A DNA stretch of 64,000 nucleotides from Bacteroidales bacterium (GTDB taxonomy: Bacteria > Bacteroidota > Bacteroidia > Bacteroidales > UBA12077): NCBI GenBank assembly GCA_028282585.1, contig JANQHR010000142.1:1-64000 (forward strand), given 5' to 3'. Position 1 is the first letter of the stretch; every line of letters begins with the position of its first letter. Of the stretch, positions 39,942 through 44,316 are shown piece after piece. Made by a program: the position numbers and the translations under genes. The notes under the pieces are model-generated. The model did not search any database. It was not told the DNA's origin and was given only the letters and a program-made list of their open reading frames with translations.

Positions 39942-40805
39942 ATGACTTGGATACTGTTTGCATTTCTCACAGCCTTATTTCGATCATTAACGGATGTTGC
40001 AGGAAAAATTGGCCTAAAAAACATGGATGAGTATGTAGTTGCCTGGGCGTTAAACTTTTTTGCTCTACCACTGCTCTTGCCTTTACTGTTTTTTATCGAA
40101 ATTCCGGAAATTACACCTGGATTTTGGCTGGCTATATGCGTGAGCGGATCATTAAATATCGCAACAGCCATACTTTACTTAAAAGCAATCAAATCAGCAG
40201 ATCTTTCCCTGGTGATTCCGTTATCCACTTTTACTCCCTTATTTTTATTAATTACCTCTCCAATAATTATAGGTGAATTCCCAAACATATTCGGCTTAAT
40301 TGGAATATTTTTAATCGTTTTTGGATCTTATATTCTTAATATTAAAGAAAAAAGGAATGGCTTTTTTGCTCCTTTTAAAGCATTATTGAACAATAAAGGA
40401 GCTCAACTAATGTTATTGGTTGCATTTATTTGGAGTATAAGTTCAAATTTCGATAAAATTGGTTTACAAAACTCATCTCCTGTTTTCTATGGCATAATTG
40501 TAAATGTCTTCATAACAATAGGAGTTACTCCCTTTTTATTGATCAAATCTACAAAAAGTCTCAAGCAAATACCTAAAAATCTAAAATCATTAATACCAGT
40601 TGGGTTATTTCATGGTTTAATGATGATATTTCATATGATTGCTATAAGTATGACACTCGTAGCTTACCTCATATCAATTAAAAGAACCAGCGCAATACTT
40701 AGCGTTTTGTTTGGAGCTCTCATTTTTAAGGAGAAGGGATTACAAGAAAGAATTTTAGGAGCTATTATTATGATCTTAGGCGTTTTGTGTATTACTCTTT
40801 TTTAA
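39942..40805 (+). CDS. EamA/DMT family transporter
   Basis: About 10 TM segments in two repeats; ADLSLVIPL, LIFKEKG. Confidence 0.9.
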   Translation: MTWILFAFLTALFRSLTDVAGKIGLKNMDEYVVAWALNFFALPLLLPLLFFIEIPEITPGFWLAICVSGSLNIATAILYLKAIKSADLSLVIPLSTFTPLFLLITSPIIIGEFPNIFGLIGIFLIVFGSYILNIKEKRNGFFAPFKALLNNKGAQLMLLVAFIWSISSNFDKIGLQNSSPVFYGIIVNVFITIGVTPFLLIKSTKSLKQIPKNLKSLIPVGLFHGLMMIFHMIAISMTLVAYLISIKRTSAILSVLFGALIFKEKGLQERILGAIIMILGVLCITLF

Positions 40806-40874: not shown

Positions 40875-41432
40875 GTGGAAAATAATCAACTAAATCCTTC
40901 CGAATGGATTAACAAGTACGGTGATTACTTGTATAATTATGCTATAACTCGAACACAATCTCAAGAAATAGCTAAAGACTTAATTCAGGATACGTTTCTA
41001 TCCGCATTAAAAGCTAAAAAGACTTTTAAAGGTAATAGTTCGGAACGAACCTGGTTAATTGCAATCCTAAAACGAAAAATAATTGATTATTACAGGAACA
41101 TTTCTAAACAGAAAGAAGATAAAACATTAAGTAATAAACCTTTTAGGGATTCAGGCTTTTTTAGTGGTCATTGGTTAGATAACAAAACACCAGCCAACTG
41201 GAATATTGAAAAATCAATTGAAACTGAAGAACTACTTGAGACCTTAAAATATTGTTTATCTCTTCTACCAGAAAAATTGAAAGCTTGTTTTAACTTAAAA
41301 AATATGGAAGATGTTCCTAATAAAGAAATTTGTAAGGAATTGGAAATTTCTGAGTCTAATTTATGGGTAATGTTACACAGAGCTCGCTTACAATTAAGAG
41401 AATGCCTGGAAATAAATTGGTTTAGAAAGTAA
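40875..41432 (+). CDS. ECF sigma factor of the MNIO RiPP cluster
   Basis: DLIQDTFLSA, SSERTWLIAILKRKIID, EICKELEISESNLWVMLHRARLQLRECLE. Confidence 0.93.
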   Translation: MENNQLNPSEWINKYGDYLYNYAITRTQSQEIAKDLIQDTFLSALKAKKTFKGNSSERTWLIAILKRKIIDYYRNISKQKEDKTLSNKPFRDSGFFSGHWLDNKTPANWNIEKSIETEELLETLKYCLSLLPEKLKACFNLKNMEDVPNKEICKELEISESNLWVMLHRARLQLRECLEINWFRK

Positions 41433-41434
41433 TT

Positions 41435-41734
41435 ATGGTTCATAATCATCACAATAAATTAATAAGAGATAAAATGCCCATGATGATTTCATGTGATGAA
41501 GCAACCTATATTATTTCAAAAAATCAACATCAAAAATTAGGTTTTATAAAGCGGATTCAGCTGAAAATACATTTACTTATGTGTAATTATTGTAGAAGGT
41601 ATGAAAATCAAATTCGATTTATAACCGGAATTATTAATAAACTCAAATTATTTCCGGAAAACAATAATTCTAATTATCGACTGGATAACCAGCAAAAAGA
41701 GAATCTCCAAAAGGAAATAAGTAAAGCTTCTTAA
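41435..41734 (+). CDS. Soluble zf-HC2 (ZAS-type) anti-sigma factor
   Basis: SCDEAT...HLLMCNYCRRY (HxxxCxxC); starts 2 nt after the sigma gene. Confidence 0.85.
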   Translation: MVHNHHNKLIRDKMPMMISCDEATYIISKNQHQKLGFIKRIQLKIHLLMCNYCRRYENQIRFITGIINKLKLFPENNNSNYRLDNQQKENLQKEISKAS

Positions 41735-41750
41735 AAAAACACTCTTTTCT

Positions 41751-41779
41751 TGTAAGGTATTTTCAAACATTACGTCTAA
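41751..41779 (+). promoter_or_regulatory. Candidate ECF promoter of the RiPP precursor
   Basis: TGTAAG-N16-CGTCTAA, 50 bp upstream of the ATG. Confidence 0.65.
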
Positions 41780-41828
41780 ATCTAAATTGTTATTTTTATT
41801 AAATCTAAATTAATTTAAGCTAACTGTT

Positions 41829-42230
41829 ATGGAAGACAATTCAAAAAAGAAAGCCAGTATCCTTAAAGGAGCTATTCTAACAGGAGTAATAGCAGGCTTA
41901 ACTCCATTATCCGTAAATTCTTCTGCACTATTTTCTTATCATGTACTTGGTTCTGGTGCTGAAGTAAGAACACAAATTTTAGAGGAAAAATCTGTTTCAG
42001 GAACAGTTTATGAACTAAAATGCGGAAGTGAAAAAGAAGAATCAAAGAAAAAAAGTGAAACCAAAAAAGGTGAGGCAACCAAGGCAGAAAAAGGTAAATC
42101 AACTGAAGCCAAATGTGGTGAAGGAAAGTGTGGTTCTGAAAAGAAAGAAGGAAAAAGCGAAGAAAAAAAAGAAGGCGAAAGTAAGTCTACCGAAGCAAAG
42201 TGTGGGGAAGGTAAGTGCGGTGTAGAATAA
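41829..42230 (+). CDS. HvfA-like RiPP precursor with KCG/EGKCG motifs
   Basis: Signal-like leader; low-complexity K/E core; ELKCG plus two KSTEAKCGEGKCG (5 Cys); directly upstream of an MNIO gene. Confidence 0.9.
   Translation: MEDNSKKKASILKGAILTGVIAGLTPLSVNSSALFSYHVLGSGAEVRTQILEEKSVSGTVYELKCGSEKEESKKKSETKKGEATKAEKGKSTEAKCGEGKCGSEKKEGKSEEKKEGESKSTEAKCGEGKCGVE
42096..42221 (+). repeat. Two copies of a 39-nt unit encoding KSTEAKCGEGKCG
   Basis: 42096-42134 and 42183-42221; identical peptide with many synonymous differences. Confidence 0.9.
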
Positions 42231-42298
42231 CATCTTACATTGCCTGAGAGCTGTATAACAATAATTCTTATTCAACAGTAATTCACAAACAGCTCAGG

Positions 42299-42372
42299 GC
42301 CCGGGAATTGGCAGGTTAGTTAGGTTGATTCGAATACATAGTGATATACATTTCCAATTCCTGGGCTTTTTT
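42299..42372 (+). terminator. Long-loop stem plus T-run between the precursor and MNIO genes
   Basis: gcccgggaattgg (42299-42311) pairs with ccaattcctgggc (42354-42366), then T6. Confidence 0.55.
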
Positions 42373-42384
42373 AAAACTATAATT

Positions 42385-43224
42385 ATGAAATCAAATATTA
42401 ATATAGGACTGGGTTTTCGACGGGATCTTACTGAAGAATTCATGTCTCAAAAAACAATCAAACCTGGATTTATTGAGTTTGCACCGGAAAACTGGATTGA
42501 TATGGGTGGCTACTGGGGAAAAGTATTAAGAGAGATTGAAACGAAATATCCAGTTACATGTCACGGATTATCATTATCACTTGGAAGTCCTGAAGAACTA
42601 GACTGGGAGTTTATTAAAAAACTCAAAATATTTCTTGATGAGCATCATGTTGAAATATACTCTGAACACTTATCCTATACCAAAGCTTCAAATGCTCATT
42701 TATATGATTTACTGCCAATTCCGTTTAGAGAAGATGCTATTCATCATGTTTCGAAAAGAATAAAACAGGTACAAGATTATTTGCAACGTAAAATCGCAAT
42801 AGAAAATGTTTCATATTACACTTCAGTAGCTGCTGAAATGGATGAAGCAACCTTTATTAACAGCATTGTTGAGGAAGCAGATTGTAACTTGTTACTGGAT
42901 ATAAATAATGTTTATGTAAATGCATTTAACCATAACTATGATCCAAAGAATTTTATAAAAAAGTTACCACTTGATAAAGTAGCATATATTCATATGGCCG
43001 GACATGAAAGGGTAGCTCCTGATCTAATTATAGATACTCATGGTGAAGCAATTATTGATCCTGTATATGAATTATTCGAATGGACGATTCAAAGAATGAA
43101 ACCAGTTCCGGTTTTATTGGAAAGAGATTTTAATTTTCCAGAAATAACAGAACTACAATCGGAACTAACTCAACTTGAGTCAATTTGCAAAAGACATTGG
43201 GAGGTTCATTATGAAATTAAGTAA
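42385..43224 (+). CDS. Multinuclear non-heme iron oxidase (MNIO, DUF692; HvfB/BufB-like)
   Basis: HGLSLSLG, SEHLSY, DLLPIP, IENVSYY, LLLDINNVYVN, IHMAGH, IDTHG, LLERDFNFP; ATG at 42385 preferred. Confidence 0.95.
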   Translation: MKSNINIGLGFRRDLTEEFMSQKTIKPGFIEFAPENWIDMGGYWGKVLREIETKYPVTCHGLSLSLGSPEELDWEFIKKLKIFLDEHHVEIYSEHLSYTKASNAHLYDLLPIPFREDAIHHVSKRIKQVQDYLQRKIAIENVSYYTSVAAEMDEATFINSIVEEADCNLLLDINNVYVNAFNHNYDPKNFIKKLPLDKVAYIHMAGHERVAPDLIIDTHGEAIIDPVYELFEWTIQRMKPVPVLLERDFNFPEITELQSELTQLESICKRHWEVHYEIK

Positions 43225-43972
43225 AGAAACAGAAGCTATTCAAAACTCTTTGGCTCTTTATTGCCGAAGCGGAGTGGAACCTCCAATTCCCGTTTCGCGT
43301 CCCGAGAATTTACCACATTACAGAAGGCTTGTTTTTAATATAGTTTTAAATACTATGCAACAAGCATTTCCAATTGCTTATAAGAATATACCAGCCGATG
43401 AATGGAAGGATTTGGTGCATAATTTCTTTTTAAAACATGATAGTCAAACTCCTCAAGTATGGAAACTTCCTTTTGAATTTTACCAATTTGTTTCTCAAAA
43501 TAACTATTCGGAACGTTTAAAGAAACCATTTTTAGATGATCTTCTTTTTTTTGAATGGATCGAGATAGAGGTACACACCATGCCAGATATTAAAGCAACC
43601 AAACATAAAACCAAAGGTAACTTATTTACTGATGTTTTAGTTTTAAACCCTGAATTTAAACTCTTTAAACTAAATTATCCTGTTCATATACATCCACCTG
43701 ATAAGGCTTTGGAACTTCATGGTGACTACTTTGTGATTGCATATCGGCATCCCAATGATTTAAATGTGAGATTCCTTAATTTATCTATTTTACACACTTT
43801 TATTATAGAAAAATTAATTGAAGAAGAATACACTTTAAATCAAATAGTTGATGATATGTTATCTTTATTTAACATCAACAAGAACGAACTAATAACCAAT
43901 ATATCAACCTTTTTAAATGACCTTTTCAACCAAAAACTAATTTTAGGTTATAAGATTAGTCCTGGCCTATGA
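43211..43972 (+). CDS. MNIO partner protein (DUF2063; HvfC/BufC-like)
   Basis: YRRLVFN, AFP, LLFFEWIEIEV, YPVH; overlaps the MNIO stop; ATG at 43211. Confidence 0.88.
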   Translation: MKLSKETEAIQNSLALYCRSGVEPPIPVSRPENLPHYRRLVFNIVLNTMQQAFPIAYKNIPADEWKDLVHNFFLKHDSQTPQVWKLPFEFYQFVSQNNYSERLKKPFLDDLLFFEWIEIEVHTMPDIKATKHKTKGNLFTDVLVLNPEFKLFKLNYPVHIHPPDKALELHGDYFVIAYRHPNDLNVRFLNLSILHTFIIEKLIEEEYTLNQIVDDMLSLFNINKNELITNISTFLNDLFNQKLILGYKISPGL

Positions 43973-44316
43973 TTTTTAAGGCCTGACAACTATGAAATGA
44001 TCGGAAATAAATAATTTAGCATCTTGGTTTTAAGGCATGAGTTATCCTTTGCCAAGAATAAGCGCTTACATGGCAGCAAGCATTGAACTATTAGGAGTAT
44101 TTTTATTGTTTTTTGGTTTGGGAACAAGAATAATTTCAATTCTTCTAATGTTCATAATGCTTGTTGTTATTTTTACGGTCCATCTCAAAGGAGGACTCAA
44201 AGCTGCAAATAATGGATTTAAAATTCCTCTTTACTACTTTATTATGTTATTCGTTCTACTAATATTAAGGACCCGGTAAAATGAGCGTTGATCGCTTCTT
44301 TGCTAAAAGAAGATAA
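43947..44316 (+). pseudogene. DoxX-family membrane protein pseudogene
   Basis: In-frame VIRLVLAYDF*GLTTMK*SEINNLASWF*GMSYPLP... with stops at 43977, 43998 and 44031; the C-terminal GPGKMSVDRFF motif is frameshifted (44269-44316). Confidence 0.85.

What the first reader, a model, noticed from the sequence alone, without database searches (positions are those of the whole stretch)
40875..44316. ECF-controlled MNIO RiPP cluster (Hvf/bufferin-type) in a Bacteroidota genome: candidate copper-binding modified peptide
Seen: sigma, anti-sigma, an ECF-like promoter, a precursor with five KCG cysteines, an MNIO with its metal-ligand motifs intact, an overlapping DUF2063-like partner, and doxX. Known: the Haemophilus HvfABC and Caulobacter bufferin systems use this enzyme pair to turn Cys into heterocycles that bind copper, so the family itself is described. 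Inference: this is a Bacteroidota variant. About 30 aa (LFSYHVLGSGAEVRTQIL...) separate the signal peptide from the first KCG, and may be a recognition or pro-segment. I know of no characterised product with this layout.
Basis: partly seen in the sequence, partly recalled or inferred. Interest (0 to 1): 0.75.

Follow-up and report, generated by a model that had tools for sequence, protein, structure and literature searches.

The report
Bacteroidota captophorin cluster with hidden leader
This gene cluster encodes a cysteine-repeat peptide, likely secreted, that its iron enzyme likely turns into a copper-binding molecule of a known class; the short segment after its export signal is predicted to be the handle by which the enzyme's helper protein grips it.

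Summary
The cluster is real: ECF sigma, ZAS anti-sigma, a promoter matching the Neisseria sigmaE consensus, a 133-aa precursor with five KCG sites, an HvfB-type MNIO (above cut-off) and a DUF2063-RRE partner. One correction: doxX is a pseudogene. The cluster belongs to the captophorins (oxazolin, fontiphorin, gonophorin), so the expected product carries 5-thiooxazoles. The six-gene set with this regulator pair is the Neisseria rpoE operon, reordered. Bacteroidota precursors of this type already stand in a published data set, and this scan noted such operons on other DNA before.

What is added concerns the post-signal segment. It is not unique: its F-x4-L-x2-G core is shared with 42 of 48 non-FCB precursors, and the FCB clade extends it with an E-x-R helix. 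A model docks it on the partner's RRE strand (0.76 against best control 0.02; mark reached by 116 of 157 solved and 2 of 215 mismatched pairs). Three FCB precursors that lack it lie in genomes where no MNIO or partner was found. So it is likely a recognition leader kept in the exported peptide. No bench data. New variant of a known kind; modest interest.

The parts
40875..41432 (+). ECF sigma factor, TIGR02943-like, 185 aa, GTG start
   Evidence: 32% identical to the sigma of the Mannheimia captophorin locus L084; dN/dS 0.05 against G282
41435..41734 (+). Soluble zinc-binding (ZAS) anti-sigma factor, 99 aa, with a His-rich N-terminal extension
   Evidence: NF052368 over cut-off; C-x25-H-x3-C-x2-C, the spacing of MseR Cys4/His30/Cys34/Cys37, in 19 of 19 anti-sigma ORFs read from related loci; dN/dS 0.10
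41751..41780 (+). Predicted ECF promoter, GTAAGGTAT-12 nt-CGTCTAAA, 51 nt before the precursor start (counted from CGTCT)
   Evidence: 8 of 9 and 8 of 8 letters of the Neisseria sigmaE consensus GTMAGBWTT / CGTCTAAH, spacer 12-13; in 15 of 20 FCB loci with a sigma, 5 of 12 without, 0.03% of shuffles; kept in G282
41829..42230 (+). Precursor peptide, 133 aa: signal peptide, leader, Lys/Glu-rich core with five KCG sites
   Evidence: 402 homologs; HvfA model 29.5 bits, under cut-off 95; dN/dS 0.04
41829..41921 (+). Predicted Sec signal peptide, residues 1 to about 31 (cleavage after S31 or A33, judged by eye; no lipobox Cys)
   Evidence: basic N-region and hydrophobic stretch (hydropathy up to 2.0); no SignalP run
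41925..41987 (+). Predicted recognition leader: strand F35-x4-L40-x2-G43 (residues 33-44) and helix 43-53 (E45-V-R47)
   Evidence: G41 and R47 invariant in 59 aligned homologs; helix H43-53 in a low-confidence monomer model; docks on the partner in the complex model
42012..42221 (+). Core: lone ELKCG (C65) and two EAKCGEGKCG units (C96/C101, C125/C130)
   Evidence: the same double repeat as the minimal FonA substrate described in PMC13097082
42248..42372 (+). Two RNA hairpins and a U-run between precursor and MNIO; likely a leaky terminator or mRNA stabiliser
   Evidence: -36.1 kcal/mol, z -2.7; z at or below -2.5 in 21 of 26 FCB loci, sequences unrelated; no Rfam match; not called by the terminator scan
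42385..43224 (+). MNIO (DUF692), HvfB family, 279 aa
   Evidence: 3BWW, E 1e-68; H60, H95, E140, D172, N175, H203, D217, H219, E246, D248, F249 invariant in 18 of 18 aligned MNIOs; only MNIO found in the genome; dN/dS 0.05
43211..43972 (+). Partner protein PME type 1 (DUF2063 plus RRE), 253 aa; four extra C-terminal residues come from read-through into the doxX remnant
   Evidence: model pLDDT 91, best fold match 3DEE NGO1945, then TglI, with TbiB1 RRE on the C-terminal part; dN/dS 0.11; G282 copy ends at 249 aa
43947..44316 (+). doxX (HvfX-like) pseudogene

Best explanation
This is a captophorin gene cluster of the Bacteroidota/FCB branch, whose iron enzyme likely converts the five KCG cysteines of the peptide into copper-binding 5-thiooxazoles after the partner protein has gripped it by a predicted leader that follows the signal peptide. 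Steps. (1) Inferred: copper or thiol-oxidising stress frees the ECF sigma from its zinc-bound anti-sigma, and the sigma starts transcription at the promoter before the precursor (promoter shown as a conserved motif; activity untested). The sigma pair lies upstream of this promoter, so unlike Neisseria there is likely no positive feedback, and no second target such as msrA carries the motif. (2) Inferred: the hairpins after the precursor gene give an excess of peptide over enzymes. (3) Predicted: in the cytoplasm residues 33-44 pair with the last strand of the partner's RRE (186-191) and the helix 46-53 packs towards the DUF2063 half, presenting the unstructured core to the MNIO. (4) Inferred from characterised homologs: the MNIO, with O2 and a mixed-valent diiron site, removes 4 H per Cys (up to -20 Da). 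(5) Inferred: Sec export and signal peptidase cleavage leave a peptide of about 100 residues, leader still attached, that sequesters Cu in the periplasm. DoxX is not needed: it is broken here while the other five genes are under purifying selection (shown).
For: Family matches over cut-off for the MNIO. Residues that match by motif position the FonB base Asp249, Phe250 and Arg15/Arg16 of Lys-Cys MNIOs (D248, F249, R12, R13; no alignment to FonB was run). All characterised MNIO-PME1 pairs make 5-thiooxazoles, three on EGKCG repeats (PMC13097082). Promoter and ZAS spacing as in Neisseria. Leader: LG[STN][GAS]-x-E-[VLI]-R-type motif in 118 of 120 listed homologs and 28 of 31 FCB loci; [FY]-x4-[LM]-x2-G in 42 of 48 non-FCB precursors against 2.8% of shuffles; the two profiles align in register (E 2.7e-5, score 24.6 against at most 11.3 in 40 column shuffles). 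A leader-only profile finds 280 clusters; 134 of the 150 listed carry KCG behind it, and the other 16 look cut short or frameshifted by eye. Complex model: score 0.76, best of 3 controls 0.02; the mark was reached by 116 of 157 solved and 2 of 215 mismatched pairs; runs agree in at least 84% of contacts, partner pLDDT at least 61. Docking residues P54, E118, F188 are invariant or nearly so in 27 FCB and 34 other partners; F234 is FCB-specific (25 of 27; not among the four commonest residues of the others). The 3 FCB precursors without the leader have doxX directly behind them and no MNIO or partner in the locus or found in their genomes (0 of 3), whereas 27 of 28 with the leader have an MNIO beside them (the 28th ends at a contig edge). 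dN/dS 0.04-0.11 for five genes. DoxX is dispensable for bufferin (PMC11626156) and no doxX match lies near 10 of 23 FCB clusters with enough flank. The genome has a heme-copper oxidase subunit and cytochrome bd; 11 of 12 MNIO-positive genomes of the order have a PF00115 match against 98 of 239 others.
Against: No modification, metal binding, export or expression was measured. The precursor and partner score under the HvfA and HvfC cut-offs. In HvfA the N-region helps but is not required, and single Ala changes before the FonA core were all tolerated, so a leader may matter little in vitro; another group has preliminary support for the signal peptide as part of the recognition site in bufferin 1. 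The complex pass may come from likeness to solved RRE-leader complexes, and my own alignments were used, so the calibration holds only roughly. The three leaderless genomes are assemblies of unknown completeness, may be one loss, and one search had no positive control among them. Oxidative stimuli did not induce the Neisseria sigmaE, and DUF692/DUF2063 mutants were chlorite-sensitive in three proteobacteria, so the signal need not be copper. FCB MNIOs sit on a long branch (1.32; quick tree), so their product could differ. One genome of 12 with the MNIO had no PF00115 match and one only a weak one; kin are not independent.
Confidence: 0.8

Rival explanations
1. Same cluster and chemistry, but residues 33-53 are a structural or functional part of the mature exported peptide (oligomerisation, binding to an envelope protein, or a pro-segment removed later), and the enzyme pair recognises the core or the signal peptide.
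For: HvfA without signal and N-region is still modified; FonA single variants before the core are tolerated; signal peptide suggested as recognition site in bufferin 1; the segment is predicted to stay on the peptide after signal cleavage.
Against: Docking at the canonical RRE strand with score 0.76 against 0.02; loss of the motif in the three precursors whose genomes show no MNIO or partner; shared register with MmrA-type precursors, whose leader was modelled on the RRE.
Confidence: 0.12
2. The modified peptide serves mainly as a periplasmic thiol/oxidant buffer (reactive chlorine or oxygen species) and not as a copper sink.
For: ZAS anti-sigma of the redox-sensing type; chlorite phenotypes of DUF692/DUF2063 mutants; Neisseria sigmaE also drives msrAB; FCB loci exist that keep sigma, anti-sigma, peptide and doxX without MNIO.
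Against: All tested relatives bind Cu and bufferin protects against Cu; msrA of this genome is not behind the promoter motif; DoxX, the likely redox partner, is lost here. The two roles are not exclusive.
Confidence: 0.2
3. The cluster is decaying in this genome and no longer makes a product.
For: doxX is broken here and reduced to a 24-codon stub in G282; the MNIO was found in only 3 of 37 genomes of the genus.
Against: Five genes intact with dN/dS 0.04-0.11 against G282, promoter kept; doxX is dispensable in bufferin.
Confidence: 0.05
4. The long-branch FCB MNIOs install a different cysteine modification.
For: Separate clade, SH-aLRT 100, branch 1.32; half of 28 FCB enzymes have Lys in place of the second Arg.
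Against: Invariant active-site residues shared with proteobacterial enzymes; over the HvfB cut-off; same core repeat; this copy keeps both Arg.
Confidence: 0.07

Closest known systems
Neisseria rpoE operon (NGO1948-1943 / NMB2140-2145), product gonophorin (PMC2893595; PMC13097082)
   Same: Same six gene kinds (ECF sigma, ZAS anti-sigma, MNIO, DUF2063-RRE partner of the 3DEE fold, EGKCG precursor, doxX); same promoter consensus and ZAS spacing.
   Different: Sigma pair upstream of the target promoter, so likely not autoregulated (no motif before the sigma here or in 19 of 19 loci checked; in L028 and L029 the pair lies behind the precursor); no msrA target found; doxX last and broken; longer leader.
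Fontiphorin (FonABC) and bulbicupramide (MmrABC of Microbulbifer) (PMC13097082; PMC12538549)
   Same: MNIO-PME1 pair, EAKCGEGKCG cores, signal peptide; a Microbulbifer precursor (L060) carries the same F-x4-L-x2-G register, and the MmrA leader was modelled as a strand on the RRE.
   Different: FCB leader continues as an E-x-R helix and a linker of about 20 residues where proteobacterial ones have G-Y and about 12; a lone first site (ELKCG); a dedicated ECF pair; MNIO about 45-50% identical and in another clade.
Oxazolin, HvfABC(X) of nontypeable Haemophilus influenzae (PMC11252979; reassigned in 10.64898/2026.06.05.730506)
   Same: HvfB family MNIO over cut-off; paired KCG repeats; signal peptide; DoxX neighbour.
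   Different: HvfA has a disulfide-bonded N-region in place of this leader; six Cys against five; precursor and partner score under the HvfA and HvfC cut-offs; no evidence of a virulence role here.
Bufferins (BufABCD, SigF/NrsF) of Caulobacter vibrioides (PMC11626156)
   Same: MNIO plus DUF2063 partner, Sec export, ECF control, DoxX dispensable.
   Different: Folded DUF2282 or 6/12-Cys precursors with two modified Cys; anti-sigma NrsF; BufB model 279 bits, under its cut-off 310.

Membership tests
Captophorins (MNIO-PME1 RiPPs) | MNIO of the HvfB/BufB/FonB group | tested here: met
   NF003818 394.9 over 360; PF05114 340.8
Captophorins (MNIO-PME1 RiPPs) | Adjacent PME type 1 partner (DUF2063 plus RRE, about 250 aa) | tested here: met
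   PF09836 and PF22106 over cut-off; fold match to 3DEE; 253 aa
Captophorins (MNIO-PME1 RiPPs) | Cys-rich precursor gene just before the MNIO | tested here: met
   41829-42230, five KCG
Captophorins (MNIO-PME1 RiPPs) | Sec signal peptide on the precursor | tested here: inconclusive
   Basic N-region and hydrophobic stretch by hydropathy; no SignalP or export test
Captophorins (MNIO-PME1 RiPPs) | 5-thiooxazole on Cys (-4 Da, about 305 nm) | not testable with these tools
   Needs co-expression, MS, UV and NMR
Captophorins (MNIO-PME1 RiPPs) | Copper binding by the product | not testable with these tools
   Needs titration or native MS
Buf_EGKCG/oxazolin (Lys-Cys) group | Repeated E(G/A)KCG motifs | tested here: met
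   Two EAKCGEGKCG units and one ELKCG; precursors with LGSGAE are filed as KC-style in the Gadgil data set (8 occurrences, 2 rows seen)
Buf_EGKCG/oxazolin (Lys-Cys) group | MNIO signature Arg-Arg near the N-terminus and Asp-Phe at the base | tested here: met
   R12-R13 and D248-F249, matched to FonB numbering by motif position only
HvfA equivalog (NF050188) and HvfC equivalog (NF050145) | Score over the curated cut-off | tested here: not met
   29.5 under 95; 119.7 under 142; NF050137 18.6 under 19.5
Bufferins proper (Buf1 DUF2282, Buf2 6/12-Cys) | DUF2282 or 6/12-Cys precursor; BufB score | tested here: not met
   No Pfam match for the precursor; NF050167 279.1 under 310
Neisseria sigmaE/MseR-type regulator pair | ZAS anti-sigma directly behind the sigma with C-x25-H-x3-C-x2-C | tested here: met
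Neisseria sigmaE/MseR-type regulator pair | Promoter GTMAGBWTT-12/13-CGTCTAAH before the operon | tested here: met
   One mismatch, spacer 12
Neisseria sigmaE/MseR-type regulator pair | Autoregulation and control of msrA/msrB | tested here: not met
   No motif before the sigma; single exact motif in the genome; msrA lies on another contig. Motif test only.
HvfX/DoxX (NF050144) | Intact membrane protein gene | tested here: not met
   Start lost, three in-frame stops, frameshift

The most novel reading that the evidence does not exclude
Most EGKCG captophorins carry a true RiPP leader hidden directly behind the signal peptide (F-x4-L-x2-G), which is never cut off; the FCB clade has grown it into a two-part leader whose extra helix binds the partner's DUF2063 half, holds the precursor in the cytoplasm until all cysteines are modified, and makes FCB enzyme pairs selective for FCB precursors. 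Losing the enzymes frees the leader to decay and leaves an unmodified KCG peptide that works with DoxX alone.
Probability: 0.35. Interest if true: 0.55.

Novelty: new variant of a known kind. Interest (0 to 1): 0.33.

Why it matters
The class is described and large, so one more cluster adds little. Two points are of use to specialists. First, how exported captophorin precursors are recognised and kept from premature Sec export is stated as open (PMC12452194, discussion passage); a defined motif, a docking model and natural leaderless variants make that directly testable, and the long, conserved FCB leader is the easiest version to test. Second, no FCB member with this layout turned up as characterised in my searches, and their enzymes form a separate clade, so one co-expression would show whether 5-thiooxazole chemistry extends to it.

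Tried and rejected
Fused or long forms of the leader: none among proteins of 234-2000 residues (weak evidence by the tool's own note). Leader shared with other core types: not seen among the 150 listed of 280 clusters; 130 were not seen. A wider sigma regulon: the loose scan gave 37 sites, mostly GTAAC-type ones that likely belong to other ECFs; the strict pattern gave one exact and 25 one-mismatch matches, none examined further except the five printed. A known RNA family in the intergenic hairpins: none. Sigma-70 promoter and terminator scans: at chance level. Monomer model of the precursor: low confidence (pLDDT 52), used only for the helix at 43-53 and not sent to a fold search. An FCB-specific R47-E118 salt bridge: not supported as clade-specific, as E118 is invariant in both groups. 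Expression: no RNA holder listed. Assembly error as cause of the broken doxX: same letters in a separate assembly of run X1, not fully independent. Second precursor or MNIO in the genome: none found. Intact HvfX-type doxX elsewhere: not found with the G015 protein; two distant DoxX-domain genes exist. Metagenome scan for close relatives gave only two loci at 48-51%, not used further. The careful MNIO tree did not finish; the quick tree is cited. The first motif count for FCB loci (14 of 33) was cut short by a 45-residue window and by demanding F or Y; it was redone (23 of 31 with F, Y, L or M at the first place). Rows left out: L076 (long frame) and L006 (no precursor); L012 (mis-started) and L007; L079 in the partner alignment; L012, L027, L061, L069, L076, L051, L084, L006, L007. 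The paper search for 'bufferin' with 'Bacteroidota' was swamped by 'buffering'.


Full report
Observation. The six elements stand at the stated places. The sigma (40875-41432) is an ECF factor nearest to TIGR02943, under that model's cut-off. The anti-sigma passes NF052368 and has C-x25-H-x3-C-x2-C, the spacing of Cys4, His30, Cys34 and Cys37 in Neisseria MseR. The precursor has five Cys, each in KCG. The gene at 42385-43224 passes PF05114 and the HvfB model. The partner passes DUF2063 and NGO1945_C, and its model (pLDDT 91) matches NGO1945 (3DEE) best. The one error is doxX: the start and first ~21 codons are gone, and three in-frame stops and a frameshift remain. A separate assembly of run X1, labelled coral metagenome and possibly the source, shows the same letters.

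Enzyme. H60, H95, E140, D172, N175, H203, D217, H219, E246, D248 and F249 are invariant in 18 of 18 aligned MNIOs. That the first nine are the metal-site residues is recalled from the family, not taken from a call. R12-R13 and D248-F249 match by motif position the FonB residues named for Lys-Cys enzymes. In a quick tree of 64 MNIOs, the 28 from Bacteroidota, Ignavibacteriota and Calditrichota form one side of a long branch (SH-aLRT 100). In the host's order, 12 of 251 genomes pass the HvfB cut-off; 11 of these 12 have a PF00115 match against 98 of 239 others (Fisher p 0.0006, overstated since kin are not independent). This genome has a heme-copper oxidase subunit and cytochrome bd, in keeping with an O2-using enzyme. 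Within the genus 3 of 37 genomes carry the MNIO.

Regulation. The site at 41751-41780 reads GTAAGGTAT-12 nt-CGTCTAAA, one letter off the Neisseria sigmaE consensus. A relaxed pattern lies before the precursor in 15 of 20 FCB loci with a sigma, 5 of 12 without, and 0.03% of shuffles. It is the only exact match in this genome and none lies before the sigma gene, so the regulon looks limited to this operon and not self-amplifying; this is a motif test only. The Neisseria operon holds the same six gene kinds and yields gonophorin, so ECF/ZAS control of an EGKCG cluster is known. Between precursor and MNIO lie hairpins with a U-run (z -2.7), and stable structure of unrelated sequence lies there in 21 of 26 FCB loci; I read it as a leaky terminator that sets peptide in excess.

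The post-signal segment. It is the most conserved part outside the cores: the LG-x-G-x-E-x-R motif is in 118 of 120 listed homologs (of 402) and 28 of 31 FCB loci. It is not unique to this clade. Among 48 non-FCB precursors, 42 carry [FY]-x4-[LM]-x2-G, each followed by Y or GY, against 2.8% of shuffles. The profiles align in register (E 2.7e-5; score 24.6 against at most 11.3 in 40 column shuffles), and some precursors in a published table read F-S-Y-x-D-L-G-S-G-Y, nearly the FCB text. FCB precursors replace G-Y by an E-x-R helix (predicted at 43-53) and a longer linker (median 22 residues to the first Cys, against 12 to the first KC). A profile of the N-terminal part alone finds 280 clusters, and 134 of the 150 listed have KCG behind it, so the segment is tied to this core. 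The complex model puts residues 33-44 on the partner's strand 186-191 and helix residues 46-53 among contacts that include partner residues 54-58, 118 and 158-165: score 0.76, best control 0.02, mark reached by 116 of 157 solved and 2 of 215 mismatched pairs, at least 84% agreement of contacts, partner pLDDT at least 61. RRE-leader complexes have been solved, so the pass may rest on likeness; it supports binding and does not show it. Three FCB precursors lack the motif (L027, L061, L069); in all three doxX follows directly and no MNIO or partner was found in their genomes (completeness not given, possibly one event). Of the 28 with the motif, 27 have an MNIO beside them. Against a strict need: HvfA is modified without its N-region, and FonA tolerates single changes before the core.

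Is it alive? Against the nearest relative G282 (86.6% nucleotide identity), dN/dS is 0.05 for sigma, 0.10 anti-sigma, 0.04 precursor, 0.05 MNIO and 0.11 partner, and the promoter is kept. G282 keeps only a 24-codon 5' stub of doxX, while G015 has it whole. DoxX is dispensable for bufferin. So the core is maintained without doxX.

Mechanism. Stress likely frees the sigma; the precursor is made in excess; the partner likely binds the leader and the MNIO oxidises each KCG Cys to a 5-thiooxazole; Sec export leaves a periplasmic peptide of about 100 residues that binds copper. Gene identities, motifs, selection and the broken doxX are shown; binding is predicted; chemistry, export, trigger and metal are inferred from homologs.

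Comparison and novelty. It works like, and by every feature testable here belongs to, the EGKCG captophorins, though precursor and partner fall under the narrower HvfA and HvfC cut-offs. Labilibacter marinus and Chitinophaga costaii clusters and 8 occurrences of LGSGAE are already in the supplement of PMC13097082, and a leader-on-RRE model exists for MmrA. The texts searched do not mention Bacteroidota for this group (0 hits), and searches showed no characterised FCB member and no description of this motif; figures were not visible. Earlier notes of this scan reached the same family call on other genomes. Verdict: new variant of a known kind, interest 0.33.

Papers seen: PMC13097082, parts 1-4 of 6 and searches of two supplement tables; 10.1101/2025.01.10.632315, passages and part 2 of 6; PMC12452194, passages; 10.64898/2026.06.05.730506, abstract and opening; PMC2893595 and PMC3240639, passages; PMC12538549, passages, part 1 of section 9 and supplement passages; PMC11252979, passages and Discussion; PMC11626156, passages; 10.1101/072470, one passage; 10.64898/2026.07.17.739211, passages.

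Noticed in passing
L061:2653-4523, L069:1981-3850, L027:5986-6988: FCB loci with a KCG precursor followed directly by doxX (two also with sigma and anti-sigma), no leader motif, and no MNIO or partner found in the genome: possibly an enzyme-less variant in which an unmodified Cys peptide works with DoxX.
   Followed up: partly
window 41435-41473: The anti-sigma has a His-rich N-terminal extension before the ZAS domain, kept in the two same-genus relatives (G015, G282) and not seen in the more distant ORFs as I called them; a possible extra metal-sensing arm.
   Followed up: no
L108 (G282), behind the partner gene: The nearest relative has lost the 3' part of doxX and keeps a 24-codon stub, while this genome lost the 5' part: different deletions of the same gene.
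   Followed up: partly
L028:5995-9314, L029:5995-9272: Gene order precursor, sigma, anti-sigma, MNIO, partner, doxX, with a variant promoter (TGTCAGG ... CATCT by eye): here the sigma would be inside its own operon, as in Neisseria.
   Followed up: no
window 39942-40805: EamA-family transporter gene on the same strand just before the sigma, kept in G282 (94%); the sigma pair may be co-transcribed with it. No link to the cluster tested.
   Followed up: no
window 19106 and other contigs: Several GTAAC-N16-CGTC sites lie before ABC permease and other genes, likely targets of other ECF factors.
   Followed up: no
window 43049-43086 and 43538-43573 (run X1): Two low-depth contigs of the same run match short parts of the MNIO and partner at lower identity: other carriers of this cluster in the same sample.
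   Followed up: no
P0174, P0233, P0248: Leader-bearing precursors whose cores are mostly TCG, SCG or NCG in place of KCG.
   Followed up: no
L103, L104: Short, stop-containing MNIO remnants in two genomes of the order (G060, G092): decayed clusters.
   Followed up: no
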